IMG/VR virus record: IMGVR_UViG_3300028912_000018
Strand: one strand, 5' to 3'
Length of the DNA: 36,849 bases
Source: a virus
Taxonomy: Duplodnaviria; Heunggongvirae; Uroviricota; Caudoviricetes
The translations under genes were made by a program, and so were the position numbers. The notes under the pieces were generated by a model. It was not told the DNA's origin and searched no databases. It was given only the letters and a program-made list of their open reading frames with translations. This document shows, piece by piece, positions 1,566-32,907 of the stretch; within the stretch, counting starts at the first letter, position 1, and each line of letters begins with the position of its first letter.

Positions 1566-4500
1566 TTAGTGCTTCCCTTCTATTAAGTCTAACCTAGCTT
1601 TTATTCTTTCTATTTCTCTGCGCTGCCATGCCGCCTCGATATAGAATAAGAGATCAGGTCTGACCCCCCATCTAGATCCTGCTGGCGTTATTTCAACGCG
1701 CTCAATGATGTCTTCCATTACCATCACTGGATTATCATCCTCATCAACAATGATGCTCCCGTCATTATCAGTCAGCGGCATTTCCCTTTGGCCAGTAATG
1801 ACGTCATCATATACTGCGGGATAATCGTCATAGCAAAGAAAGGCATAGCGGCATGTTGTGCTTTCTTCTTCCATGAGTCCGTGAGAAATAAGAACATCAC
1901 GAAGTTGCTGCGCGATTACACCATGATGTATCCTCGCTCCTTCTTCCCCCTTTATAGCGACAGCGTTCAGCCATTTATAAGCGATATACCTGACGTCACC
2001 CCAGGCATCCAGCAATGCTTCGTCAGGAGAGACCGGCTCTGTCTTTAATGTTCCGTCACTGGTAACCACAGGATTGGAGCCAAGATAAACTGTCGAGAAC
2101 CTGTTTCCCGGACCACCAAGAGCATTTACATTATCAAGATAAGGTTTAACATCTCCGTTCTCAAAAAGATGTTCGAGTGCGTTATATACCGCGCGACGTG
2201 GAGTACTGCTTCCGGAACCATGCAACGTTATCATTGCACCATCTGCTGAAGACGTTGTTTCACCTCCGCTAACGATTAATCTCTGAGCGGTAACATCATC
2301 AGACGGTACTTTCTTCGCAATAATGGCGTAATTACCCTCAAGTTTGACTTCCGCGCGAACTTGTCCTGATGTACCTGCATGGACAGTCAGTGACTGGACG
2401 GCAACATCATCTGTGAAATCAACGGGTACAGGAACCGTCCTCACGCCTGACGTCGACATAAAAGTAGGAAGCGTTCTGTTAGGAGTGGCTCCGTAGACAA
2501 AATCCCTTGAAACAAATTCTTCCTGTTTAATTTTCACCCTGAAACAATACAAATCAGCCGGGTGACCATCGTGAACATAAGGATATTTTCTGTTGTTATC
2601 CCCTATGCTCCATGGGTTTAGAAAGTCTTCCCCACCGAAAATGTAGTACAGCCAGTTGTCTTTGATACAAACTGAACCAACACCAACCGCAGAGTTAACT
2701 ATTCCGCCCTGATAAATCTGATCAGTAACATTAACCCACTCTACATTATCCAGACTCCACTCATTGACGTTAACTCTGGTCATAAATGTTCTTGGATAAT
2801 TTCCTGCATAACGGTTATCAGGTTCTCCTCCTTCCCACTCACCAAATGCGCGCTCACTGCCAAAAATAATCAGCTCATCGCCAACTTTGGCAAAAGGAAG
2901 GTTTGAGTGATGAACATTATTTGGGAAGCGAAGAGAATTCCATGATGTACCTAAATCAGAGCTTCTGTGCAATGAACTACCGGGTTGAGTACTTAATGTC
3001 CCCCTGGTCGTCAGATACAGAATGCCATCATAATATTTTACACATGGCTCAGATGCATTCGCCTCATATTCTGCAGGTATGCGTCTGCGAACAAAGCTAC
3101 CAGGAGAACCGAAAGCATCAGAGAAATAGAGTATCCCAAGCTCGCGTGGACCAATATCACCATTATGGTAGCCAACAGCAAAACTGTTATCGCTAATCGT
3201 CGCAAAACTGTGAATCTCAGTAACAGGAGTGCTTCCGTCAACAAAAGAAGGAATAGTTCCAAGACTGGTTTTTCTCCATGGTGACGAGTGAAATGATGTA
3301 CCAAAACTCCAGTATCTACCCTCGTTATTCTGATCCACATCCTGGGTATTTTGCGTCGTAACTGTAAAAGTATTTTTATCAATAACAGTAGTCACCGTCA
3401 TATTCCCGGTAACACCTGTAACACCAGAGTTTGAGAAGTTGACAAAATCACCAGCAAATAATCCGTGATCAGTAATGCGAATATAAGCGACTTGCTGATT
3501 TGCTGCTTTCGTTATACCACCATAAACGCGAAGGCTGCGACTCATTGGGCGATCCCACAACTCTGCAACCTGCAGTTTATTTCCTCTCACGGTCCGCGTC
3601 TCAATTACAGCAAAAAGGCGATTTCTGACAACCCCCATACTCATGCAGTGATAGTTAACTGTGGGATAGTTTTCATGTAAATCTGTAAGCCATTCCGGCG
3701 TTGTCCAGGTCTTCCCGTCATCTCCTGAGCGAACCCATGCAACATGGAGGTTATTTACACCATGGCGGTCTCCAGCCATAAAAGGCGCATAGATGACATT
3801 GTCATATACAAACGTTTTATCCTGCGTCCAGGCGTTGTACCACGGTGTATCTGTAATTTTAAATAACTCTCCCTGGATAAAATCTTCAGAAGCATAAAAA
3901 AGAGGCTGGCCCGGTATTCTCTCAAATAAAAAACGAGCATTTTTAAATCGACTGACATCCGGAAGAGTTGATACTTTAAAAGTAAGCCCTAATCCGTCAA
4001 TTTTATAACCTGGAGATGAGGCTTCAAGGCACGCGCTTATTGCAGTGGAATCGTCATTTATACCATCACCAACAGCTCCAAAATCTTTGGGGCTAATAGC
4101 ATCACGCATTTTATCCTGGAACGTTCGGTACACAGCCCCAGAACCATACTGAATAAACCAACCAAAACCACCAACAACCCCGGCGATTGCAGCATCGACA
4201 TAATTACGCATTGAGCGATTATTTACAGCGTCCTGCTCAAATGATGGATCTGCAAGGTTAGAAATTTTGTTTTGCTTTGCATCGTAATATTTTGCAAGCA
4301 AAGATGGTTTCATCAATGCACGTCTGAACCACCCAAAACATTGCTGGATCAGCATCGTCAGGTAGTCAAAGGCATCTTCATGCACTTCGGGGAAAAATTT
4401 TCCCTGATTGCGAAGGTCTGTGTCCTGCACTACATCAAGCACACGATCTATCGTAATTCGCCATCCAGTAGCAAGCGGAGACGGAAGAACCACAGAACCG

Positions 4501-4688
4501 CCACTATAAGTGCCCGCCCCAGTTACCGTATAACCGGTATCCAGGACCAATTCTGTTACGTTCCCGTTCAGGTCAGACACCTGAACAACCAGGTCTGATT
4601 TTCTGAAAATTCGAAAAGTATACGGAAACGATGTCGTAACGCCGTTACCGGTGTATTCGTTGTGGTCAACTTCGGTTGAGACCGTCAT
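1566..4688 (-). CDS. tailspike, endosialidase-type with C-terminal intramolecular chaperone (peptidase S74-like) domain
   Basis: 1040 aa; two sialidase Asp-box motifs (SGDDGKTW, SSDLGTSW); C-terminal segment with SDGTLK serine-lysine motif and conserved chaperone-domain tail; GGAG SD 7 nt before ATG. Confidence 0.7.
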   Translation of the reverse strand: MTVSTEVDHNEYTGNGVTTSFPYTFRIFRKSDLVVQVSDLNGNVTELVLDTGYTVTGAGTYSGGSVVLPSPLATGWRITIDRVLDVVQDTDLRNQGKFFPEVHEDAFDYLTMLIQQCFGWFRRALMKPSLLAKYYDAKQNKISNLADPSFEQDAVNNRSMRNYVDAAIAGVVGGFGWFIQYGSGAVYRTFQDKMRDAISPKDFGAVGDGINDDSTAISACLEASSPGYKIDGLGLTFKVSTLPDVSRFKNARFLFERIPGQPLFYASEDFIQGELFKITDTPWYNAWTQDKTFVYDNVIYAPFMAGDRHGVNNLHVAWVRSGDDGKTWTTPEWLTDLHENYPTVNYHCMSMGVVRNRLFAVIETRTVRGNKLQVAELWDRPMSRSLRVYGGITKAANQQVAYIRITDHGLFAGDFVNFSNSGVTGVTGNMTVTTVIDKNTFTVTTQNTQDVDQNNEGRYWSFGTSFHSSPWRKTSLGTIPSFVDGSTPVTEIHSFATISDNSFAVGYHNGDIGPRELGILYFSDAFGSPGSFVRRRIPAEYEANASEPCVKYYDGILYLTTRGTLSTQPGSSLHRSSDLGTSWNSLRFPNNVHHSNLPFAKVGDELIIFGSERAFGEWEGGEPDNRYAGNYPRTFMTRVNVNEWSLDNVEWVNVTDQIYQGGIVNSAVGVGSVCIKDNWLYYIFGGEDFLNPWSIGDNNRKYPYVHDGHPADLYCFRVKIKQEEFVSRDFVYGATPNRTLPTFMSTSGVRTVPVPVDFTDDVAVQSLTVHAGTSGQVRAEVKLEGNYAIIAKKVPSDDVTAQRLIVSGGETTSSADGAMITLHGSGSSTPRRAVYNALEHLFENGDVKPYLDNVNALGGPGNRFSTVYLGSNPVVTSDGTLKTEPVSPDEALLDAWGDVRYIAYKWLNAVAIKGEEGARIHHGVIAQQLRDVLISHGLMEEESTTCRYAFLCYDDYPAVYDDVITGQREMPLTDNDGSIIVDEDDNPVMVMEDIIERVEITPAGSRWGVRPDLLFYIEAAWQRREIERIKARLDLIEGKH

Positions 4689-4791
4689 GTTAAATCTCCA
4701 GATAGTCGCAGCACCCGTTGCGCCGCATATCTGGTTATTCTATTACCTGAAAAACCATATATGGATAAAAAGACTATAAATACCAATAGAT

Positions 4792-4808
4792 ATTACCTTT
4801 CGGGTAAT
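4792..4808. promoter_or_regulatory. operator-like 17-bp palindrome ATTACC-TTTCG-GGTAAT
   Basis: perfect inverted repeat; member of a dispersed motif family. Confidence 0.55.
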
Positions 4809-4844
4809 TTGCAAAACGTGCTGGATAGCAAACAAATTATTTGT

Positions 4845-4864
4845 TACTGTATAAACATACAGTT
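4845..4864. promoter_or_regulatory. LexA (SOS) box TACTGTATAAACATACAGTT
   Basis: CTGT-N8-ACAG with AT-rich spacer; 20 nt upstream of the 4884 start codon. Confidence 0.7.
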
Positions 4865-4883
4865 ATTGCATGGAGAAGATAAG

Positions 4884-5141
4884 ATGCAGCAGTATCACTA
4901 TCCACTGGAAGACGGATTTACCGAAAGGATTCACACGCCGGGAGGCGTCAGGTCACTGGTGGAGGGATCGCACTTGATGAAATTACTCCGGGATCTCGAT
5001 AAGGATGGATTTAATGTCGATGGCCCACTTGCCGAACTGACTGCACTGATTAACTACGTCACCAGCTCACAGATGTCTATGCAGGATCTGCAAACACATC
5101 TCGACTATTGTGCCGAACAATTACGAAAACAAACCAGATAA
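4884..5141 (+). CDS. small antirepressor-like protein (stand-alone paralog of the Ant C-terminal domain)
   Basis: 85 aa; GGAG SD 8 nt upstream; roughly 40-45% identity by eye to the C-terminal 75 aa of the 5459-6115 product. Confidence 0.6.
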   Translation: MQQYHYPLEDGFTERIHTPGGVRSLVEGSHLMKLLRDLDKDGFNVDGPLAELTALINYVTSSQMSMQDLQTHLDYCAEQLRKQTR

Positions 5142-5144
5142 GGT

Positions 5145-5188
5145 TTGCAATTACCAAATGGAGTGCTTATATTTACCTTTGCGGTAAA
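5145..5188 (+). promoter_or_regulatory. sigma70-like promoter overlapping operator TTTACC-TTTGC-GGTAAA
   Basis: -35 TTGCAA (5145-5150), 17-nt spacer, -10 TATATT (5168-5173); operator 5172-5188. Confidence 0.5.
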
Positions 5189-5300
5189 TTTACATCGCAC
5201 TCCTCTTGTGCCATAGTAATCGGGCACTGGCAAAATCCAGTGCCGGGATTGGTCTCCCGGATTACTAAGTGGCGCATACCACGCCAGACGTGGTTTTTTT
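5189..5300 (+). ncRNA. candidate small structured RNA or attenuated leader upstream of ant
   Basis: no credible ORF; 8-bp stem hairpin (5223-5244), second hairpin with loop TTGGTC, intrinsic terminator CCACG-loop-CGTGG plus T7 at 5279-5300. Confidence 0.3.
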
Positions 5301-5458
5301 ATGCGTATAGCACAGTCATGCCAGAATTATGGTGGGCTGAATGGGGGTCCGAAAGGACGCCGGTACCACTTAGGCCGGTAAGACCAACTCCGTTCAGTTC
5401 ACCACCATCTGATTGGTCTCAGCGGTGGTGATGTAATTCGCTAAGTGGAGACGCCATC

Positions 5459-6115
5459 ATGAACGCTCAACTCATCCCCGTATTCAACGGCACTATATCT
5501 AACGAAACAGCCCTACTTTGTAATGCCCGCGATCTGCACGCTTTTTTAGGTGTTAAAAAGGTGTTTGCAGCATGGATTACAAATCGCATATCAGAATACG
5601 AATTCATTGAAAATCAAGACTATATTTTGCTTTCCAATTTGGGAAAGCAAACATCTGGTAGAGGCGGCCACAACCGCAAAGAGTACCACCTCACCCTTGA
5701 TACAGCCAAAGAGCTGGCGATGGTCGAGCGTAACGAAAAAGGTCGCCAGGTGCGACGCTACTTCATTGAATGCGAGAAACGTTTAAGACAACAAGAAACA
5801 AAAGTGGAGAAGGTCTTGTCAGGCTTCATGCCCGCCATTATGGAGGCGATCAAGCTGGAAGACAAAAAAGAATACAGCGCCCCACTGAAGCCCGGCTACC
5901 GTAGCCTGATTCATTCGCCGTCTGGTGTTCTCGGCCTGACGGAGAACTCACTGCTGATGAATCTGCTGAACAAGTTACAGGAAGACGGGCACGATGTATC
6001 GGGCGCGGCAGCGGAGCTGACCACCATGTTCTGCTACATCGTCGGTGTGAGCAAATGCCTGCGTGATATCCAGACGCACGCGGAGTACATCAACGACAAG
6101 GCAGGGTTCTTCTGA
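5459..6115 (+). CDS. ant: antirepressor (AntA-type N-terminal domain plus C-terminal domain)
   Basis: 218 aa; N-terminal [35 protein letters not shown] resembles the AntA antirepressor domain; GGAG SD. Confidence 0.7.
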
Positions 6116-6157
6116 CGGCGGCGGCACAGGGACGTGCCTTTAAATAATTCTGTACAG

Positions 6158-6202
6158 ATTGCAGACTGTGGGTGAATAGCGTACTATTACCTTAAAGGTA
6201 AA
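6158..6202 (+). promoter_or_regulatory. promoter with overlapping operator ATTACC-TTAAA-GGTAAA
   Basis: -35 TTGCAG, 17-nt spacer, -10 TACTAT; operator 6186-6202 abuts the AGGAGG SD. Confidence 0.45.
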
Positions 6203-6213
6203 GGAGGCGCGAT

Positions 6214-6381
6214 ATGACAGCGTTGAAAAATCGTACTCAGCACAATGAACAAGCCAAGCAATGCTGGGATGTCATTGGAAAAGTTATGCTTGGCCGCGCA
6301 AGCAAAGAGCGCGACAAGGATATGGTTTACCAGACAGGAACATCTTTCAGCGACTTCAAGGCGGCATTTCGCTCCAAATAG
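6214..6381 (+). CDS. small hypothetical protein (55 aa)
   Basis: ATG with AGGAGG SD; below the ORF-track size cutoff; translated by hand. Confidence 0.4.
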   Translation: MTALKNRTQHNEQAKQCWDVIGKVMLGRASKERDKDMVYQTGTSFSDFKAAFRSK

Positions 6382-6401
6382 AAGCACATCAGGAGTTTTC
6401 C

Positions 6402-7695: not shown

Positions 7696-10245
7696 TTATT
7701 TACCTAGCATGAACTGCGATGGTGGGATCAGAAAGTCGTTCCCCTGCTCACGCTCAACACGGCGCTGATAACGCTCAAGAGAGCCTGGGTCAAGGGCATC
7801 TTGTATCCGGTTCAATATTAAACCATTCATCGCCGTACGAAGCCAGAACACGTTGAGGAATGGCGTATTGTCAAGTGCCGTGCGATACCAGTCACCCAAA
7901 TCAGCATCCCCTCTCGTGGTCTGCTGGAGCAGCGTGATAATGCTGTCAGCGTTCGATGCTGCTGGCCCCATTAGCGACGTAACCGGCCCGGCCCCCATGC
8001 GGTTGACCTCACCAAACATGAAGTCACCCAAGATGCCAAGACCGCCCCCCTGAGATGCGGCTGCGAGAAACGTCTTGGCATCTGCCGGGCGTGGTGTTTG
8101 CCCTTTCAGCATGAGTTTTGACTGCATGGAGATATAACCAAACATAGTCGCCCAGACAAAGAGGTTTGCAGCACCAAGGAAAGCCCCCTTCCCGTTACGT
8201 AGCAGCGCATTCGTCAGCGATCCGGTTTTCGACTCACCAAGCCCAGCAGGAATATAACCACGCCCGAATACTTCGCGTCCTAGTACGTTCTGCATGAAGC
8301 TTGCAGTGAACGATTTGTACTGACCAGCGAATCGTATTGCTTCCCCAGCCACCGTTCCTGGCACCGTGCCCATCTTCATAAACGCCTGCGTGCGATCGCC
8401 AGGCTCTGACATGGCGATATTCAGACGGTCAAGGATGTAGCCGCGCAACTGCCCTTCCAATTGATCGCGTGCGTCAGCGATAGCGCGCTGCGTTGGTTTG
8501 ATCCCCTTACTCTCTACATAACCGGCAATCACTTCGTCAGGCACGCCGCGGATGCCGCTGGTCGTCATGAACTTACGACCTTCGCTATCGGCCATGTCCA
8601 TGTTGCGAAAAATTTCCCACTCACGTTCGCCAATACCGTGCAGATCCAGCACGCGTCGCAGGTCTTCCGGTAGCCGCGCATGAGACTGGTCAGCATTCTT
8701 TGCAAGCCAGTTGGTTATCATCATGGCGTTGCTGTTGCGACCGCTCTCGGTCCAGAAGTTCATGAGGTTGTACTTAAAGAAAAGCTGCTGCGCGCGACCA
8801 AGCTTTCCATTCAGCGTGTCATCACCAGATATGCGCCGGATGATTTCCTGCGTCATGGAGTCGGAATAAACTCCGATAGAGGAAAGGATCTCTTTCTGCT
8901 CCGCGCTGTTGTAACGCGTGAAGCGGCCTCTCATAGCACCAAGCAACGCCTGCATAAAATTCTGCCCTTGGTAGCGCATCTCGGTAGCGGCGATAGGCAC
9001 GTCGTTAAACGATGAGATTACCGCGCCACCAAGTTGGCTCATACGCAACCAGCCGCGTACAGCCGCCGACGCATTGGCCCAGCCTACGCTGCCAGGAATA
9101 TTTAGCGAGCCGTCAACCTGCGGCATTACGGTACGGTTAATGCGACGCACCTTCGTCATGTAGTCAGCCAACGCTGCCGGTCTTCCGGATTTGCTGATAT
9201 CTTCAGCAATGGCGTCCGTCAGGTACTTAAACATGTTCTGTGGGTTAGTGCCCAGTACGCGCATCATGCCCGTTGTGCGGGCAGCGCTGTTTAAGCCACC
9301 AAACAGCGCTTCTCGCAGGCTGCCGGTGCCGAATTGCTGGTTGTACTCGTGCCACGAGATACCATCTTTGAAGTGCAAAATTCGCTCTTGGCTGGCGCGT
9401 TTAGCTGCGTTCGCCGATCCCTTAAAGCCATTCATCCAATCGGGCTTTTCAGATGTAAGATGCACGCCGGAAGCCAGCCCGTTATAAATGTTACGCATGA
9501 ACTGCTCGCGGTCAGCCACGCCGTCAAAAGTGCGCTCATCAAGGCGCGGGAGAATAGCATTTCGCCATGCTTCATAACCTGCGGCGCGGATCTTCATGAT
9601 GTCGTGTGACTGGCGCACTATATAGCCCGGCTCTTTGCGTATCCATGCCCCGGCGCGGTTCTCATCAATGCGCGCAGTTTCCTGCCATTTCATGATGATT
9701 TGTGCAGCGCTTACGGATTGCTTTGTCATACCGTCAGTTGACTGCCCGCGCCCTATGCGCCACATTGCATCGGCAATTTCCCGGTCATTGCTGCCGCTGG
9801 CGATGAATTGCACCAGCCCGGCACGGTCAAAATCGTAGTTGATACCGGAATGATACTTGCCGCGCAGTTGCGCCACCTCCGAAGATACCGACCGGCGGGC
9901 GCCGGTACGCGCATCGTTGCGGCCAACCAGCATTGCTTCAAGCCCGATATCCGGGCGGTCTTTCCAGATAGTACGAAGCTCTCTAAGTCGTTGTGCGGCA
10001 ATACGGGCGTCGATTGCCTTATTGCGAGCCTCAATCTGTTTTGCCAGCATATCGGCATTGCTCAGTTCTTCCGCTGCGCGCATCGCGGCCTCTTCCAGAG
10101 ACAGCGCCTCATTGGTCGCCAGAATTCGCCTAGTGGTGTCGTTCATGTCACGCACCAGCGACTCCATCTCATCGGAAGAAAGCTCGCGACCAGCGGCAGC
10201 ATTTACACTGCGCTCGCACTGCGTCAAAAATTCGTTTGCTGCCAT
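7696..10245 (-). CDS. large internal virion (core/ejection) protein
   Basis: 849 aa; ATGA start-stop overlap with upstream gene; position in operon. Confidence 0.65.
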   Translation of the reverse strand: MAANEFLTQCERSVNAAAGRELSSDEMESLVRDMNDTTRRILATNEALSLEEAAMRAAEELSNADMLAKQIEARNKAIDARIAAQRLRELRTIWKDRPDIGLEAMLVGRNDARTGARRSVSSEVAQLRGKYHSGINYDFDRAGLVQFIASGSNDREIADAMWRIGRGQSTDGMTKQSVSAAQIIMKWQETARIDENRAGAWIRKEPGYIVRQSHDIMKIRAAGYEAWRNAILPRLDERTFDGVADREQFMRNIYNGLASGVHLTSEKPDWMNGFKGSANAAKRASQERILHFKDGISWHEYNQQFGTGSLREALFGGLNSAARTTGMMRVLGTNPQNMFKYLTDAIAEDISKSGRPAALADYMTKVRRINRTVMPQVDGSLNIPGSVGWANASAAVRGWLRMSQLGGAVISSFNDVPIAATEMRYQGQNFMQALLGAMRGRFTRYNSAEQKEILSSIGVYSDSMTQEIIRRISGDDTLNGKLGRAQQLFFKYNLMNFWTESGRNSNAMMITNWLAKNADQSHARLPEDLRRVLDLHGIGEREWEIFRNMDMADSEGRKFMTTSGIRGVPDEVIAGYVESKGIKPTQRAIADARDQLEGQLRGYILDRLNIAMSEPGDRTQAFMKMGTVPGTVAGEAIRFAGQYKSFTASFMQNVLGREVFGRGYIPAGLGESKTGSLTNALLRNGKGAFLGAANLFVWATMFGYISMQSKLMLKGQTPRPADAKTFLAAASQGGGLGILGDFMFGEVNRMGAGPVTSLMGPAASNADSIITLLQQTTRGDADLGDWYRTALDNTPFLNVFWLRTAMNGLILNRIQDALDPGSLERYQRRVEREQGNDFLIPPSQFMLGK

Positions 10246-11942
10246 CACATCCCCCGGTTAATCATACAGGCGGCAAATGCCCGGAAAGCGTTGCTCATGC
10301 TATTGTCGCTGGCGTCGGCACGAATATCATTGAGTTTCTGGCGCAACGTGGTCGCAAGATCAGGGTTATCGACAGCGATATCGTCAAGCAGGGCGTTACT
10401 CAGGTTGAGCTCGTTATCAAGGTCTGCAGCGGCAGCGGTAATTTCATGATCTGCCTTTTGCGTTTCTTGATAAACCCGATCGGCTGTTTCGCTTGCTGGG
10501 CGAGCCGTTTCATCAACCTGCCGTGCCGGGTTCTGTATGCGATGGATGGCGCGTTCACGCAGTGCTGGTTTGTGCAGTTCATAGAAGGGCTCAACATCTG
10601 GGCTACGTCCTTCCATCATGTGTGCCAGCGCAGCGCGATACGCCTGCTGGTTCACGTTCCAGTCAGCATCCCTGATGGCGCTTGCGGCAGTGCGAACTGC
10701 GCCAGCGACCGGCGACATCTGCATGCCGTCCAGGATCTGCTGCGCACGCTCGGAAATGGTGACTTTCAGGTCGTCGGGGATCTCGCCGCGGGAAATCTGA
10801 GACTGGCGCCAGCGCGCCTGCTCTGCTGTCGCGTTCTGCTCCAGCGATGTGTTGATCTCCTGATTGCGTGCAGCGATGGCGTCTTTCTCGGCCTGAATCT
10901 CTTTCAGTGCCCTAGAGCGCGCATCCTTAAACTTCATCCGCTGCCCCTGATACTTTTTGGTGCGCTGCTGCAGCGTCGCATCAAGCGAGTCAGCATGACG
11001 TTGATTAGCCGCAAGCTCGGCACGCAGGTCGGCAACGTTACCGATCTGCCCGCTCTGTAACTCCTGCTGGCGCGCCATATAGTCAGGAACCACGTCGTCA
11101 TAAGCTCGGCTGTATGCGTAGCTCTCCGCTTCACTGGAAATGGCCGCCGCCAGATCTGCGTTAGCGCCAACCTCAGGGATATTCACGCCCGCCGGAATGT
11201 TGTCAGGCGTTATCACTGGGGTTGGCTGCGCATCGCCAGAAAACGCCGGGGACTCTCCCGTTGCAGCATCGGGAACGCGACGCGGTCGCACGATATCGGC
11301 GATAAGGCCGCCGCCGGCATGCATTAGACCGCCAGCCATCGTGTTAAAAAAAGTACTTTCCAACGCGTTGCTATAGGTGAAGTCGTCACCTTCCGCCGCC
11401 GCTGCCAGCCCGGTAAGCGGCACGGTCACCAACGCCTGCGCTGCCCCCATGCGTGCACCAGCAACAAATCGCTCGCCAAATCGGCCAAGCACAGAAGCCG
11501 CCTTTGCTTCTCCAGCGAACGGAACCAGCGCCAGCGCCACGTTACCAGGATCTGCCATTGAACCAGCTAGGCTGGCTGCGAAATTAAGCGGCGTGGCTAC
11601 CCACCCGCTCGGTGCCGACATCGCGATCTGCTGGCGTGCCAGAGAATCTTTGCGTTCGGCAATAACATGATCGAGAAAAGCCTGCGTAACGCCAGAATCT
11701 GGCACGTTTATGCTCTTTACGCCGTACTGCTTCAGGAGCTCATCCGCTTCCTGCTTACTGATAACTGTAGAGTTTGGGTCATTCGCCAGCGAGTCGGCCT
11801 GCGCAAAGCGGTAGCCGGACATGACCGGCCCCTCTTCAAATCCCTGCTTAAGGGAAGAAAGCAGCGATTCGCCAAGCCCTGCTGGCGCGTTGCCAATTGG
11901 CTGGTTAATTCCCTGTCCCGGATCATCTGTGTAAATTGGCAT
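10245..11942 (-). CDS. internal virion (core/ejection) protein
   Basis: 565 aa; coiled-coil-rich; tightly coupled to neighbours. Confidence 0.6.
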   Translation of the reverse strand: MPIYTDDPGQGINQPIGNAPAGLGESLLSSLKQGFEEGPVMSGYRFAQADSLANDPNSTVISKQEADELLKQYGVKSINVPDSGVTQAFLDHVIAERKDSLARQQIAMSAPSGWVATPLNFAASLAGSMADPGNVALALVPFAGEAKAASVLGRFGERFVAGARMGAAQALVTVPLTGLAAAAEGDDFTYSNALESTFFNTMAGGLMHAGGGLIADIVRPRRVPDAATGESPAFSGDAQPTPVITPDNIPAGVNIPEVGANADLAAAISSEAESYAYSRAYDDVVPDYMARQQELQSGQIGNVADLRAELAANQRHADSLDATLQQRTKKYQGQRMKFKDARSRALKEIQAEKDAIAARNQEINTSLEQNATAEQARWRQSQISRGEIPDDLKVTISERAQQILDGMQMSPVAGAVRTAASAIRDADWNVNQQAYRAALAHMMEGRSPDVEPFYELHKPALRERAIHRIQNPARQVDETARPASETADRVYQETQKADHEITAAAADLDNELNLSNALLDDIAVDNPDLATTLRQKLNDIRADASDNSMSNAFRAFAACMINRGM

Positions 11943-23813: not shown

Positions 23814-23851
23814 TTGACATTTAACGCACAAATTATTACCTTTCAGGTAAC
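23814..23851 (+). promoter_or_regulatory. plus-strand promoter (-35 TTGACA) with operator ATTACC-TTTCA-GGTAAC
   Basis: perfect -35; weak -10 overlapping the operator 23835-23851. Confidence 0.4.
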
Positions 23852-24172: not shown

Positions 24173-24249
24173 GTGGCATTAGCTCAGTCGGACAGAGCAA
24201 CCGCCTTCTAAGCGGTTGGTCGCAGGTTCGAATCCTGCATGCCACGCCA
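24173..24249 (+). tRNA. tRNA-Arg (anticodon UCU), with encoded CCA
   Basis: cloverleaf by hand: acceptor GTGGCAT/ATGCCAC, D GCTC/GAGC, anticodon stem ACCGC/GCGGT, loop CTTCTAA, T arm GCAGG-TTCGAAT-CCTGC. Confidence 0.85.
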
Positions 24250-24335: not shown

Positions 24336-24452
24336 CAGCATGACGCCATTGCGATGGCTTCATGCTGTAAACCAGTACAGCCACGGAAGGCATAACTCAT
24401 TGCTTCCAGTTCGCCCGATTCGCCGGGCATTTTTTTAAGGTGAGATTAGACT

Positions 24453-24824
24453 ATGAGTGAAAAAGACATTGAATCTGAAATTCAGGCTAAAGGTTTAGCC
24501 GCGCCGCGCGTTACGCCAGACCATATCGAGAGCATTATTGCTCAGGAGGCATATTTCACAGCAGAAGATGGTGCCTTTGGCGTAGCCATAAAAGCGAAAC
24601 ATACTGGCGGAGAGGTAAACTACCAGCCGCACGAATCACTTTCTCTGCTGACGTTCTGCGTCCTGGTGCTGCGCAACGGCTTCACCGTCACCGGAGAGAG
24701 CGCCTGTGCAAGCCCGGAAAACTTTGATGCGGAAATTGGTCGGAAGATTGCCCGGCAGAATGCTGTAAACAAAATCTGGATGCTTGAAGGTTACTTGCTG
24801 AAGCAGAAGTTAAGCGAGCAATAA
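24453..24824 (+). CDS. conserved phage protein of unknown function (Gp49-like?)
   Basis: 123 aa; AAGGTGAG SD; family assignment from memory only. Confidence 0.55.
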   Translation: MSEKDIESEIQAKGLAAPRVTPDHIESIIAQEAYFTAEDGAFGVAIKAKHTGGEVNYQPHESLSLLTFCVLVLRNGFTVTGESACASPENFDAEIGRKIARQNAVNKIWMLEGYLLKQKLSEQ

Positions 24825-26390: not shown

Positions 26391-26983
26391 TGATTACCAT
26401 CCTGACGTTCTTTGAGTCGCTTCCTGGCTGCTGCTATGCGATCAGCAATTGTCACATTCACATTAACATCCAGACGTTCTTTGAACGCGTTGACATCAAC
26501 ATGCTTACCAATCAGCTCAAGGTTCTTCACCTTGTCAGGCCATTTAATTTTTTTGAGGATTGTCTCTATCGAATCCTCGTTCATGTTCATGATGGTCGAT
26601 GACAGATCAAAGCCACTAAGCGTAGTGCGCCAGATTTTCGGCCACTCGCGGATTGGCTTAAGGCTCCCATCGTCGTTGAGGATGTCGATCACGTCCATCT
26701 GGTCGATCTCCACCAGGCGCATGAGAACGTAATCAGCACTGACGCGCATTCGTTTGTTGCGCTCCTCCATCAACTCGGCAATCCGTTTCTGAATGCGTTC
26801 ATCGCGCATCATGACACTGGCTTTAACTGCCGCTGTATTTGGGGAGAATCCTGCATTAATCGCTGCCTGAGTCTGGTTTTCAGGCGTTTTGATGTATGAC
26901 TGGCAATAAGCCTCCTGCATTGCTGTTAGTGGCTTAAATTGCGTTGATTTGCGTTTATAGGTTTTAGGTTCAGCAGGCATCAT
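26387..26983 (-). CDS. terminase small subunit
   Basis: start placed at ATG-ATG 26983/26980; the 26-aa extension to TTG 27061 is translated operator sequence. Confidence 0.65.
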   Translation of the reverse strand: MMPAEPKTYKRKSTQFKPLTAMQEAYCQSYIKTPENQTQAAINAGFSPNTAAVKASVMMRDERIQKRIAELMEERNKRMRVSADYVLMRLVEIDQMDVIDILNDDGSLKPIREWPKIWRTTLSGFDLSSTIMNMNEDSIETILKKIKWPDKVKNLELIGKHVDVNAFKERLDVNVNVTIADRIAAARKRLKERQDGNQ

Positions 26984-29767: not shown

Positions 29768-29846
29768 TTTACCTCTGAGGTAATTAAAAACCACATAAGA
29801 CACGAAATCAATAGATTTTAGAATATTTTATTACCCATTAGGTAAT
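29768..29846 (-). promoter_or_regulatory. two operator palindromes with a minus-strand promoter between P and the nin-like block
   Basis: TTTACC-TCTGA-GGTAAT (29768-29784, overlaps SD) and ATTACC-CATTA-GGTAAT (29830-29846). Confidence 0.45.
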
Positions 29847-32068: not shown

Positions 32069-32133
32069 TTCACCCATAAGGTAACAAAAATCAAGGATAG
32101 TTACCTATGGGGTGCATTTACCTGTTGGGTAAT
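32069..32133. promoter_or_regulatory. three-site OR-like operator cluster
   Basis: TTCACC-CATAA-GGTAAC (32069-32085), GTTACC-TATGG-GGTGCA (32100-32116), TTTACC-TGTTG-GGTAAT (32117-32133). Confidence 0.6.
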
Positions 32134-32187: not shown

Positions 32188-32772
32188 ATGAAAAGTATCC
32201 AGGACGTCCGCAGGCAAAATCTCAACGACTTGATCGACCGTGAATTCAATGGTGTTCAGACGCGGATGGCAGAAAAACTTGGAACTCAGGCAAATCTGGT
32301 AAACCGCTGGGCTCTTGGCAAGAAGGTTATCGGCGACCAGGTTGCGCGAAAAATTGAAGCTGCCGCCAATAAACCACGTAACTGGCTTGATATCGATCGC
32401 TCGCTTTCTCAGGAAGGTTTTCAGCCTGTCGGCCCAAGCGACATTGGTCAGCTGGCGGCTCACAACCTGGAACGCTGGATGAGCGAAAGCCGCGACCTTT
32501 CAACACAGGGAAAACTTCACCGCGCATCCGGCGTCGCCCAGGTGACAATCAGCCGCCTGTTAAACAATGAGGTCAGCGTTTCCATTTCCACCCTGGAGAA
32601 TGTTGCATCCGCATTCGGGCGTCACGGATATGAACTACTGATTCACCCGCACGACCCTGCGACTATCAACTATGACCGCTCACGCTACGCATTGTTACCC
32701 GAAACCGAGAAAGCAAAGATCGAAAGTTACATTGAATTTGTCATCAACCAGAACGAAAAAAACAAACAATAA
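32188..32772 (+). CDS. prophage repressor with two HTH-like segments, no S24 peptidase domain
   Basis: 194 aa; HTH-like segments around RMAEKLGTQANLVNRW and ASGVAQVTISRLL; no GDSM/Ser-Lys autocleavage motif. Confidence 0.7.
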   Translation: MKSIQDVRRQNLNDLIDREFNGVQTRMAEKLGTQANLVNRWALGKKVIGDQVARKIEAAANKPRNWLDIDRSLSQEGFQPVGPSDIGQLAAHNLERWMSESRDLSTQGKLHRASGVAQVTISRLLNNEVSVSISTLENVASAFGRHGYELLIHPHDPATINYDRSRYALLPETEKAKIESYIEFVINQNEKNKQ

Positions 32773-32828: not shown

Positions 32829-32907
32829 ATTACCTTACGGGTAATTTTTTTAACTCATATCTATTGACACCAAACCAAATAAGCATAATTATTACCTCAA
32901 CGGTAAC
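32829..32907 (+). promoter_or_regulatory. pL-like promoter (-35 TTGACA at 32864-32869) flanked by two operators
   Basis: ATTACC-TTACG-GGTAAT (32829-32845) and ATTACC-TCAAC-GGTAAC (32891-32907). Confidence 0.55.

What the first reader, a model, noticed from the sequence alone, without database searches (positions are those of the whole stretch)
4845..5141. LexA box in front of a stand-alone paralog of the antirepressor C-terminal domain
A near-consensus SOS box (CTGT-ATAAACAT-ACAG) lies 20 nt upstream of an 85-aa ORF. Its product aligns by eye with the C-terminal 75 residues of the full-length Ant encoded 300 nt downstream (shared PL.G...IH.P.GV..L.E.S.LM.LL..L..DG..V.G..AELT...Y...........D.QTH..Y). 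An operator palindrome (4792-4808) sits just upstream, so the gene appears under dual LexA and phage-repressor control.
Basis: partly seen in the sequence, partly recalled or inferred. Interest (0 to 1): 0.7.

Follow-up and report, generated by a model that had tools for sequence, protein, structure and literature searches.

The report
SOS-controlled small phage antirepressor, already known
The LexA box and the 85-residue gene are real, but they are the E. coli-phage copy of an antirepressor switch already solved in Salmonella phage SPC32H; the only less familiar point is a second, RNA-controlled antirepressor next door that reuses the same protein domain.

Summary
TACTGTATAAACATACAGTT (4845-4864) is the only near-consensus LexA box in the window. 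It lies 21 nt upstream of an 85-aa ORF (4884-5141) that is 42% identical (E 3e-20) to the C-terminus of the 218-aa Ant (5459-6115).

The window is an epsilon15/phiV10-like podovirus (Uetakevirus). The 85-aa protein is the ortholog (88% identity, E 4e-47) of SPC32H Ant (PDB 5D50), the LexA-repressed antirepressor that disassembles the non-cleavable repressor Rep. A Rep homolog lies at 32188-32772. The box aligns with the SPC32H box, where the single C-to-A change of the constitutive-Ant mutant SPC32N falls.

So the small protein is the established antirepressor, not an accessory fragment. The large Ant is a fusion of an AntA domain to this module.

The palindrome TTACC-N5-GGTAA is a genuine phage operator (10 exact sites against 0.5 expected). 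It sits about 57 bp upstream of the likely ant start, between divergent promoters, so joint LexA and Rep repression of ant is unproven.

The less familiar part is next door. An operator-flanked isrK-C4 RNA switch controls the large Ant, giving two antirepressors with one shared domain under different inputs. The core finding is already known.

The parts
4792..4808 (.). Operator O1, the 17-bp palindrome ATTACCTTTCGGGTAAT (core TTACC-N5-GGTAA). It lies between the divergent tail-fibre and ant genes.
   Evidence: One of 10 exact and 4 one-mismatch sites against 0.5 expected. The aligned site in epsilon15 is annotated as a repressor protein_bind feature. It is conserved 51-52 bp upstream of the LexA box in 6 of 7 prophages and in L018.
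4822..4827 (+). Putative -35 of P_ant (TGGATA). A 17-nt spacer separates it from TACTGT.
   Evidence: TGCTGGATAG is invariant in the window, phiV10, SPC32H and epsilon15. CTGGA is kept in the divergent loci. This is inferred and is below the threshold of the promoter scan.
4845..4864 (.). LexA (SOS) box TACTGTATAAACATACAGTT. Its first 6 nt, TACTGT, are the putative -10 of P_ant.
   Evidence: for uniqueness; for conservation. The SPC32N C-to-A change falls in the aligned right arm. Phage 186 p95 is annotated with the same arrangement of -10 and LexA box.
4884..5141 (+). ant, the small 85-aa antirepressor and ortholog of SPC32H Ant. Its SD sequence GGAG is at 4872-4875.
   Evidence: E 4e-47 against PDB 5D50 chain E, 'Anti-repressor protein'. 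88% identity to the SPC32H ant gene by tblastn. phrog_450 at E 9e-48.
5173..5187 (.). Operator O2 (TTACCTTTGCGGTAA), which abuts the -35 of the isrK promoter.
   Evidence: The operator-(A/C)-TTTAC(A/T)-17-CATAGT arrangement is conserved in ZX5, L018 and Klebsiella L013.
5189..5217 (+). P_isrK: TTTACA, 17-nt spacer, (TG)cCATAGT. It predicts a start at about 5224.
   Evidence: Promoter scan, 9 of 12 with a TG extension. The identical promoter is found in L013.
5224..5300 (+). isrK-type sRNA with an intrinsic terminator (stem 5278-5294 plus a T run). It carries the a1/b1 repeats GATTGGTCTC (5247-5256) and CTAAGTGG (5265-5272).
   Evidence: Rfam RF01394, 67.7 bits against a gathering score of 50. 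Terminator. Repeats.
5325..5409 (+). C4-type antisense RNA. The segments CCACTTAG (5366-5373) and AGACCAA (5381-5387) are complementary to the a/b repeats.
   Evidence: Rfam RF01695, 61.2 bits against a gathering score of 45. Complementarity.
5318..5431 (+). 37-aa upstream ORF that spans C4, positionally like Gifsy-1 orf45. It stops 28 nt before the large ant ATG.
   Evidence: For orf45 see PMC4825925. Its function here is inferred.
5411..5448 (+). a2/b2 target repeats GATTGGTCTC (5411-5420) and CTAAGTGG (5441-5448). The second overlaps the SD sequence GTGGAG (5445-5450) of the large ant.
5459..6115 (+). Large Ant, 218 aa. It has an AntA domain (residues 22-92) and a C-terminal SPC32H-Ant-like domain (residues about 137-213, nt 5867-6097).
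6187..6201 (.). Operator O3 (TTACCTTAAAGGTAA), which overlaps the SD sequence of a 55-aa ORF (6214-6381).
   Evidence: The ORF belongs to phrog_8607, function unknown.
32188..32772 (+). rep, the 194-aa repressor and presumed target of Ant. It has two HTH regions and no S24 peptidase domain.
   Evidence: E 4e-42 over its full length against the 5D50 chain A repressor. Pfam finds HTH_3 and YdaS-like hits only.
32070..32132 (.). Operator cluster in the rep-cro intergenic region: 32070-32084, a degenerate site near 32102, and 32118-32132.

Best explanation
Proposed mechanism. The 85-aa ORF is the SOS-inducible antirepressor (Ant) of an epsilon15/phiV10-like temperate podovirus. In the lysogen, host LexA binds the box at 4845-4864. 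That box overlaps the likely -10 (TACTGT) and the start of P_ant, so ant stays silent. DNA damage leads to RecA-stimulated LexA cleavage. Ant is then made, binds the non-cleavable repressor Rep (32188-32772) and releases it from the TTACC-N5-GGTAA operators. This opens the early promoters and induces the prophage.

Shown here: orthology of Ant and Rep to the SPC32H pair; uniqueness and conservation of the LexA box and its alignment with the mutated base of SPC32N; the operator family.

Inferred from the SPC32H work and not tested for this phage: LexA binding, the Ant-Rep contact, and the exact promoter.

The 218-aa Ant downstream is a second antirepressor. It fuses an AntA domain to the same module and is gated separately, by an operator-flanked isrK promoter and by C4 antisense RNA covering its ribosome-binding site.
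For: Ant is orthologous to the SPC32H antirepressor (PDB 5D50_E, E 4e-47), at 88% identity by tblastn to the gene annotated 'ant: anti-repressor protein'.

Rep is orthologous to 5D50_A over its full length (E 4e-42). It has no S24 peptidase domain.

The LexA box is unique in the window. Its arms are invariant across four phages. It is kept in seven prophages whose Ant is down to 59% identical and in contig L018.

One of the only two differences found between the compared SPC32H and SPC32N loci is a C-to-A change in the aligned box. This matches the published constitutive-Ant mutant (Kim & Ryu 2013, J Virol 87:11775; recalled, paper not held).

The review PMC7380047 states that LexA cleavage leads to Ant synthesis that inactivates the repressor, citing Kim & Ryu. 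PMC9638917 summarises Ant as a tetramer that binds two Rep dimers and breaks the Rep tetramer.

The genomic position between the tail-fibre gene and the injection-protein genes is the same as in SPC32H and epsilon15.

The operators cluster in the rep-cro region and flank strong early promoters.
Against: Nothing has been measured for this phage. Rep is only about 50% identical to SPC32H Rep while Ant is 88% identical, so the cognate Ant-Rep contact is an extrapolation.

No promoter in 4689-4883 passes the consensus scan, so P_ant is placed by conservation and by analogy with phage 186 p95.

In two divergent loci the left arm of the box reads ATGT rather than CTGT.
Confidence: 0.88

Rival explanations
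1. The small ORF is an accessory stand-alone copy of the domain of the 'real' large Ant. It is jointly repressed by LexA and by the phage repressor bound at 4792-4808.
For: The paralogy is real. The operator is real and keeps a fixed 51-52 bp offset from the LexA box in every related locus that has one.
Against: The small protein is the experimentally characterised antirepressor. It occurs without any large Ant in SPC32H and epsilon15.

The operator centre lies at about -57 from the inferred ant start. The same intergenic region also has to hold the tail-fibre/lysis operon promoter, and the operator-to-tail-fibre ATG distance of 105-110 nt is equally conserved.

Strict co-repression would also be a logical trap, because Ant could not be made to remove Rep. 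The SPC32N box mutation alone gives constitutive Ant (plus Kim & Ryu 2013, recalled).
Confidence: 0.2
2. The small protein mainly modulates the large Ant. The shared domain, which tetramerises in SPC32H Ant, would let the two co-assemble, either activating or poisoning the large Ant. On this view the small protein does not act on Rep itself.
For: Both proteins carry the same fold. The gene pair recurs in divergent phages, namely phiV10, ZX5, L018 and Klebsiella L013.
Against: The small Ant acts on Rep on its own in SPC32H, and that phage has no large Ant. Identity between the two copies is only 37-42% in both lineages examined, and no interface data exist. At most this would be an added function.
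Confidence: 0.07
3. The LexA-like palindrome is a chance AT-rich inverted repeat or a binding site for another factor, and the ORF is constitutive or controlled only by Rep.
For: No binding was measured here. AT-rich intergenic DNA produces palindromes.
Against: 0.00 such sites are expected by chance. The arms are invariant while the spacer and flanks drift across about ten loci. The natural SPC32N mutation maps to the box.
Confidence: 0.03

Closest known systems
Salmonella phage SPC32H Ant-Rep-LexA antirepression switch (Kim & Ryu 2013, J Virol; Kim et al. 2016, PNAS; PDB 5D50 and 5D4Z)
   Same: Same genus (Uetakevirus) and same gene position. Ant is 88% identical and a Rep homolog is present. 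The LexA box aligns base for base, and the TTACC-N5-GGTAA operator upstream is the same.
   Different: Rep is only about 50% identical. In SPC32H the ant gene is followed directly by a terminator-like GC-rich hairpin (read by eye; the aligned epsilon15 site is annotated as a rho-independent terminator) and there is no second ant. Here an isrK-C4-large-Ant cassette follows, with no terminator-like site before the isrK terminator.
Coliphage 186 Tum under the LexA-controlled promoter p95
   Same: A small LexA-repressed antirepressor encoded outside the immunity region. The LexA box starts at the -10 hexamer (TACTGT...), and the box sequence is almost the same as in SPC32H.
   Different: There is no detectable sequence homology (BLASTP E 0.06). 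Tum carries a DinI-like part. It is a functional analogue, not a family member.
Gifsy-1 and Gifsy-3 GfoA and GfhA (Lemire et al. 2011, PMC3121763)
   Same: Small antirepressors under direct LexA control that inactivate non-cleavable repressors. They also show cross-talk between heteroimmune repressors.
   Different: They belong to lambdoid siphoviruses. Homology was not tested here because the sequences were not fetched. They interact as dimers rather than as a tetramer (section headings).
P1/P7 immI (c4-icd-ant) and Gifsy-1 isrK-orf45-anrP (PMC4825925). This applies to the neighbouring large Ant.
   Same: isrK and C4 score above the Rfam gathering thresholds. The a/b repeats lie on both sides of C4, and the second b repeat covers the ant SD sequence. 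A uORF spans C4. The Ant has an AntA-type N-terminus.
   Different: The C-terminal domain of this Ant is the SPC32H-Ant module and not a Pfam KilAC/ANT domain. The isrK promoter is abutted by a Uetakevirus Rep-type operator. The cassette sits directly behind a LexA-controlled ant.
E. coli phage vB_EcoP_ZX5 ORF4 'anti-repressor' (PMC9782041)
   Same: ZX5 has an identical small Ant and a C-terminal domain 95% identical to that of the large Ant here. Its Rep is reported to be identical to that of phiv142-3. Overexpressing ORF4 lowered the lysogen titre about 1000-fold.
   Different: The N-terminal domain is Bro-N rather than AntA. The paper did not mention the small ant, LexA or the RNAs.

Membership tests
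SPC32H-type LexA-controlled small antirepressor system | The Ant protein is homologous to SPC32H Ant (PDB 5D50 chain E). | tested here: met
   phmmer E 4e-47 over residues 2-84; 88% identity by tblastn.
SPC32H-type LexA-controlled small antirepressor system | A cognate non-cleavable Rep is present in the same genome. | tested here: met
   The protein from 32188-32772 matches 5D50_A over its full length at E 4e-42. Pfam finds only HTH domains and no Peptidase_S24.
SPC32H-type LexA-controlled small antirepressor system | A LexA box overlaps the ant promoter. | tested here: met
   The box at 4845-4864 is unique in the window. It aligns with the SPC32H box that carries the SPC32N C-to-A change. 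The overlap with the promoter is inferred from conserved TGGATA-17-TACTGT.
SPC32H-type LexA-controlled small antirepressor system | LexA binds and represses ant, and Ant is induced by DNA damage. | not testable with these tools
   Needs EMSA and qRT-PCR. Known only for SPC32H (recalled from Kim & Ryu 2013; review statement).
SPC32H-type LexA-controlled small antirepressor system | An Ant tetramer binds Rep and releases it from the operator. | not testable with these tools
   The structure and mechanism are summarised in PMC9638917.
Phage 186 Tum family | Sequence homology to Tum. | tested here: not met
   BLASTP E 0.06 with 14/46 identities, which is not significant.
c4/isrK-controlled ant operon (P1 immI, Gifsy-1 isrK locus), for the neighbouring 218-aa Ant | C4 and isrK RNAs lie upstream of ant. 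| tested here: met
   RF01695 scores 61.2 bits against a gathering score of 45. RF01394 scores 67.7 bits against 50.
c4/isrK-controlled ant operon (P1 immI, Gifsy-1 isrK locus), for the neighbouring 218-aa Ant | Repeated target sequences complementary to C4 lie on both sides of it, and one occludes the downstream RBS. | tested here: met
   GATTGGTCTC and CTAAGTGG occur at 5247/5265 and again at 5411/5441. C4 carries AGACCAA and CCACTTAG. The repeat at 5441-5448 overlaps the SD sequence at 5445-5450.
c4/isrK-controlled ant operon (P1 immI, Gifsy-1 isrK locus), for the neighbouring 218-aa Ant | An upstream ORF is translationally coupled to ant. | tested here: inconclusive
   A 37-aa uORF (5318-5431) exists but stops 28 nt before the ant ATG. 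Coupling was not tested.
Pfam ANT/KilAC C-terminal antirepressor domain (PF03374) | The C-terminal half of the large Ant matches PF03374. | tested here: not met
   AntA (PF08346) is the only Pfam hit at E up to 0.1. The C-terminus instead matches 5D50_E.

The most novel reading that the evidence does not exclude
E. coli phiV10-like phages may run a two-tier antirepression circuit built from one Rep-binding module. Tier one is a LexA-gated stand-alone Ant. Tier two is the same module fused to an AntA or Bro-N domain and gated by a Rep-operator-flanked isrK promoter plus C4 antisense RNA.

In this window no terminator separates the small ant from isrK. SOS transcription from P_ant would therefore end in an IsrK-bearing 3' region. 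That RNA could titrate C4 and unlock the large Ant, giving feed-forward commitment to induction. The two proteins might also form mixed tetramers.

The domain itself has no Pfam or NCBIfam model. It forms about 64 clusters at 50% identity and recombines with AntA, Bro-N, pRha and ORF6N heads.
Probability: 0.2. Interest if true: 0.55.

Novelty: already known. Interest (0 to 1): 0.3.

Why it matters
The practical value lies in annotation. The 85-aa gene is labelled 'hypothetical protein' in phiv142-3, phiV10, ZX5 and RefSeq E. coli genomes. One experimental paper on ZX5 studied only the large Ant and overlooked the small one. The small protein is nevertheless most probably the SOS trigger of these prophages; the query region, covered at 80% or more, is present in 79 of 5,426 complete E. 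coli genomes.

The shared C-terminal module suggests that this small helical domain is the repressor-targeting part of a wider set of 'Ant' proteins. It also offers a simple system for asking why a phage keeps two differently wired antirepressors against one repressor.

Tried and rejected

2. The papers Kim & Ryu 2013 and Kim et al. 2016 could not be read. Their content is cited from memory and from secondary sources.

3. RNA duplex energies of C4 against isrK and against the leader were not distinguishable from shuffles. Only the exact complementary 7-8-mers are used as evidence.

It is indicative only and I do not rely on it.

5. I considered TTGCAA (4809-4814), which abuts the operator, as the -35 of P_ant. 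I rejected it because it is not conserved in the divergent loci, whereas CTGGA-17-(T/A)A(C/T)(T/A)GT is.

6. I considered conserved read-through from the small ant into isrK. It is weakened because Klebsiella L013 has a strong terminator between the two and L018 has a weak one.

7. An orthology split between stand-alone and fused copies was not resolved. Identities are all 36-49%.

8. The word-indexed protein search returned only close stand-alone homologs. The exhaustive profile search was needed to find the fused forms.

Full report
**What the window is.** Nucleotides 4700-6400 are 98.9% identical to Escherichia phage phiv142-3. They are 90-93% identical, in part, to phiV10, TL-2011b, ZX5 and other members of the genus Uetakevirus, the epsilon15-like temperate podoviruses. 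The finding lies in the short rightward-transcribed island between two leftward genes. One is the tail-fibre gene (1566-4688, minus strand), which here encodes a 1040-aa endosialidase. The other is an 850-aa gene (7696-10248, minus strand), at the position of the large hypothetical-protein genes downstream of ant in phiV10 and SPC32H.

**Check of the observation.** The sequence is as described.
- TACTGTATAAACATACAGTT lies at 4845-4864, GGAG at 4872-4875 and the ATG at 4884. The ORF ends at 5141.
- The 20-mer matches the LexA consensus at 17 of 20 positions. It is the only such site in the window, with 0.00 expected. The 16-mer core allowing up to 3 mismatches is also unique, with 0.07 expected.
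- The looser pattern CTGT-N8-ACAG gives two further hits with GC-rich spacers, which I take to be chance.
- The 85-aa product aligns without gaps to residues 137-210 of the 218-aa Ant at 5459-6115. Identity is 42% and E is 3e-20.
- The palindrome ATTACCTTTCGGGTAAT is at 4792-4808.

**What the small ORF is.**
- It matches one solved structure, chain E of PDB 5D50, named 'Anti-repressor protein', at E 4e-47.
- tblastn finds the same protein at 88% identity in Salmonella phages SPC32H and SPC32N, where the gene is annotated 'ant: anti-repressor protein'. It is also found at 84% in epsilon15 (gp19), at 98-100% in the E. coli relatives, and at 58-63% in Klebsiella phages.
- The window also encodes a full-length homolog of the 5D50 repressor chain at 32188-32772 (E 4e-42). 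That protein has HTH regions and no S24 peptidase domain.
- From my own knowledge of Kim & Ryu 2013 (J Virol 87:11775) and Kim et al. 2016 (PNAS 113:E2480), which the library does not hold: SPC32H Rep is not cleaved on SOS induction. It is inactivated by this small Ant, whose gene is repressed by LexA.
- Two held papers say the same in summary. They describe Ant as a tetramer that binds two Rep dimers and breaks the DNA-binding Rep tetramer.

**The LexA box is the same one as in SPC32H.**
- In an alignment of the tail-fibre/ant intergenic region of the window, phiV10, SPC32H and epsilon15, the box arms TACTGT...ACAGT are invariant. The spacer and flanks vary.
- Over the 5.2-kb loci compared, SPC32H and SPC32N differ at only two bases. 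One is a C-to-A change that turns ACAG into AAAG in the right arm of the aligned box. This fits the published statement that a single change in the LexA site makes Ant constitutive in SPC32N.
- The box keeps its position, 20-30 nt before the start codon, in seven prophages. These come from Citrobacter, Superficieibacter, Pseudocitrobacter, Scandinavium, Klebsiella and Buttiauxella, and their Ant is 59-88% identical. The same holds in a metagenomic contig with a still more distant Ant.
- In two of the seven prophages and in that contig the left arm reads ATGT.

**Promoter.**
- No consensus promoter is found in 4689-4883.
- The conserved elements are TGCTGGATAG (4819-4828) and, 17 nt further on, TACTGT, the first six bases of the box.
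- Phage 186 p95, the LexA-controlled tum promoter, is annotated with exactly this layout: the -10 equals the first hexamer of the LexA box.
- I therefore place P_ant at TGGATA (4822-4827) and TACTGT (4845-4850). This is an inference.
- Tum itself is not homologous to this Ant (E 0.06).

**The palindrome.**
- TTACC-N5-GGTAA occurs 10 times exactly and 4 times with one mismatch, against 0.5 expected.
- Sites cluster between rep and the divergent cro-like gene (32070, about 32102, 32118).
- Pairs spaced 62 bp apart bracket two strong early promoters. One pair is at 32830/32892 around TTGACA-17-CATAAT. The other is at 29831/29769 around TTGATT-17-TTTAAT on the minus strand.
- Single sites precede the late transcription units, at 23836 and at 26983/27001.
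- The epsilon15 GenBank record annotates the aligned sites, including the one upstream of gp19, as 'repressor' binding sites.

**Whether the operator represses ant is another matter.**
- Its centre is about 57 bp upstream of the inferred ant start and about 105 bp from the tail-fibre ATG. Both distances are conserved.
- The region must also hold the promoter of the tail-fibre/lysis operon.
- Strict co-repression by Rep would block the very step that removes Rep.
- The SPC32N phenotype shows that loss of LexA control alone is enough for Ant synthesis.
- I therefore rate dual repression of ant as possible but unproven, at about 0.2.

**The neighbour and the gap.** The 317-nt gap is not empty.
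- Rfam finds an isrK-type sRNA at 5224-5300 (67.7 bits) and a C4 antisense RNA at 5325-5409 (61.2 bits). Both score above their gathering thresholds.
- isrK carries GATTGGTCTC and CTAAGTGG. Both are repeated after C4, at 5411 and 5441, and the second copy overlaps the SD sequence of the large ant.
- C4 carries the complements AGACCAA and CCACTTAG.
- This is the P1/P7 c4 logic (summarised in PMC12197685) and the Gifsy-1 isrK-orf45-anrP layout (PMC4825925). It includes a 37-aa uORF across C4.
- A second operator (5173-5187) abuts the -35 of a good isrK promoter, TTTACA-17-TGcCATAGT, which predicts a start at 5224. This operator-promoter unit is conserved in ZX5, L018 and Klebsiella.

**The large Ant.**
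- It has an AntA domain (PF08346) at residues 22-92 and no Pfam hit in its C-terminal half.
- That half matches 5D50_E at E 6.5e-14.
- An AlphaFold model is confident there, with pLDDT 85-95.

**The domain family.**
- An exhaustive profile search of 1.84 billion representative proteins finds only 64 clusters.
- They are either stand-alone proteins of 80-95 aa or C-terminal domains behind AntA, Bro-N, Phage_pRha or ORF6N heads.
- ZX5 ORF4 combines a Bro-N head with a C-terminal domain 95% identical to the one here. Overexpressing it reduced lysogeny about 1000-fold in a phage whose Rep is reported to be identical to that of phiv142-3.
- This supports the view that the shared module is the part that acts on Rep.
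- Salmonella SPC32H and epsilon15 lack the whole cassette. In SPC32H a terminator-like GC-rich hairpin follows ant directly (read by eye), and the aligned epsilon15 site is annotated as a rho-independent terminator.

**Verdict.** Its core is already known, however: it is the SPC32H-type LexA-Ant-Rep antirepression switch in an E. coli member of the same genus. The dual-control claim is unproven.

What I could not find described is the pairing of this switch with an RNA-gated second antirepressor that reuses the same module. In this lineage there is also no terminator between the small ant and isrK. SOS transcription could therefore feed the isrK/C4 switch. That coupling is not conserved: Klebsiella has a strong terminator between the two genes and L018 a weak one. 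I give the feed-forward reading a probability of about 0.2.

Noticed in passing
window 1566-4688 (-): The tail fibre is a 1040-aa endosialidase. It has End_N_terminal, beta-propeller, beta-barrel and tail-spike domains plus a Peptidase_S74 chaperone. This Uetakevirus is therefore probably specific for the K1 capsule. The closest sequenced relative, phiv142-3, carries a shorter tail-fibre gene (2130 nt against 3123 nt here).
   Followed up: partly
L002 3755-4434 (phiV10 p23/p22): In phiV10 the large Bro-N 'anti-immunity protein' is frameshifted inside the Ant-like C-terminal domain (...LLMN then RTTGMMYQARRRS*). The second antirepressor may therefore be inactive in that phage, or the record may contain a sequencing error.
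   Followed up: no
window 32830-32906 and 29769-29845: Operator pairs exactly 62 bp apart bracket two strong early promoters. In each pair one operator lies upstream of the -35 and the other sits on the start site. This fits a Rep tetramer that bridges two sites.
   Followed up: partly
window 6187-6381: A third single operator (TTACCTTAAAGGTAA) overlaps the SD sequence of a 55-aa ORF of unknown function (phrog_8607). A 193-aa ORF (phrog_5954) follows. These look like cargo genes wired to the phage repressor.
   Followed up: no
window 5318-5431; L016 2455-2568: The short ORF that spans the C4 RNA is annotated 'ash family protein' in ZX5, and a gene call on metagenomic contig L019 has a Phage_ASH hit in the same region. 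This is probably an annotation artefact of the C4 RNA gene.
   Followed up: no
window 24365-24380: A second CTGT-N8-ACAG palindrome (TGCTGTAAACCAGTACAGCC) lies about 70 nt upstream of the 123-aa ORF at 24453 and next to a tRNA gene (24173-24246). Its spacer is GC-rich and it is a poor match to the LexA consensus, so it is probably chance.
   Followed up: partly
L002 3474-3500 versus window 5173-5200: In phiV10 the segment around operator O2 is inverted relative to the window: TTACCGCAAAGGTAAATATAAGCACTCC against TTACCTTTGCGGTAAATTTACATCGCACTCC. The inversion removes the TTTACA -35 of the isrK promoter.
   Followed up: no
window 4737-4766: ATTCTATTACC is invariant across the E. coli and Salmonella phages. 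It contains an operator half-site and, on the minus strand, TAGAAT. That hexamer is a candidate -10 for the tail-fibre/lysis operon, about 50 bp from operator O1.
   Followed up: no
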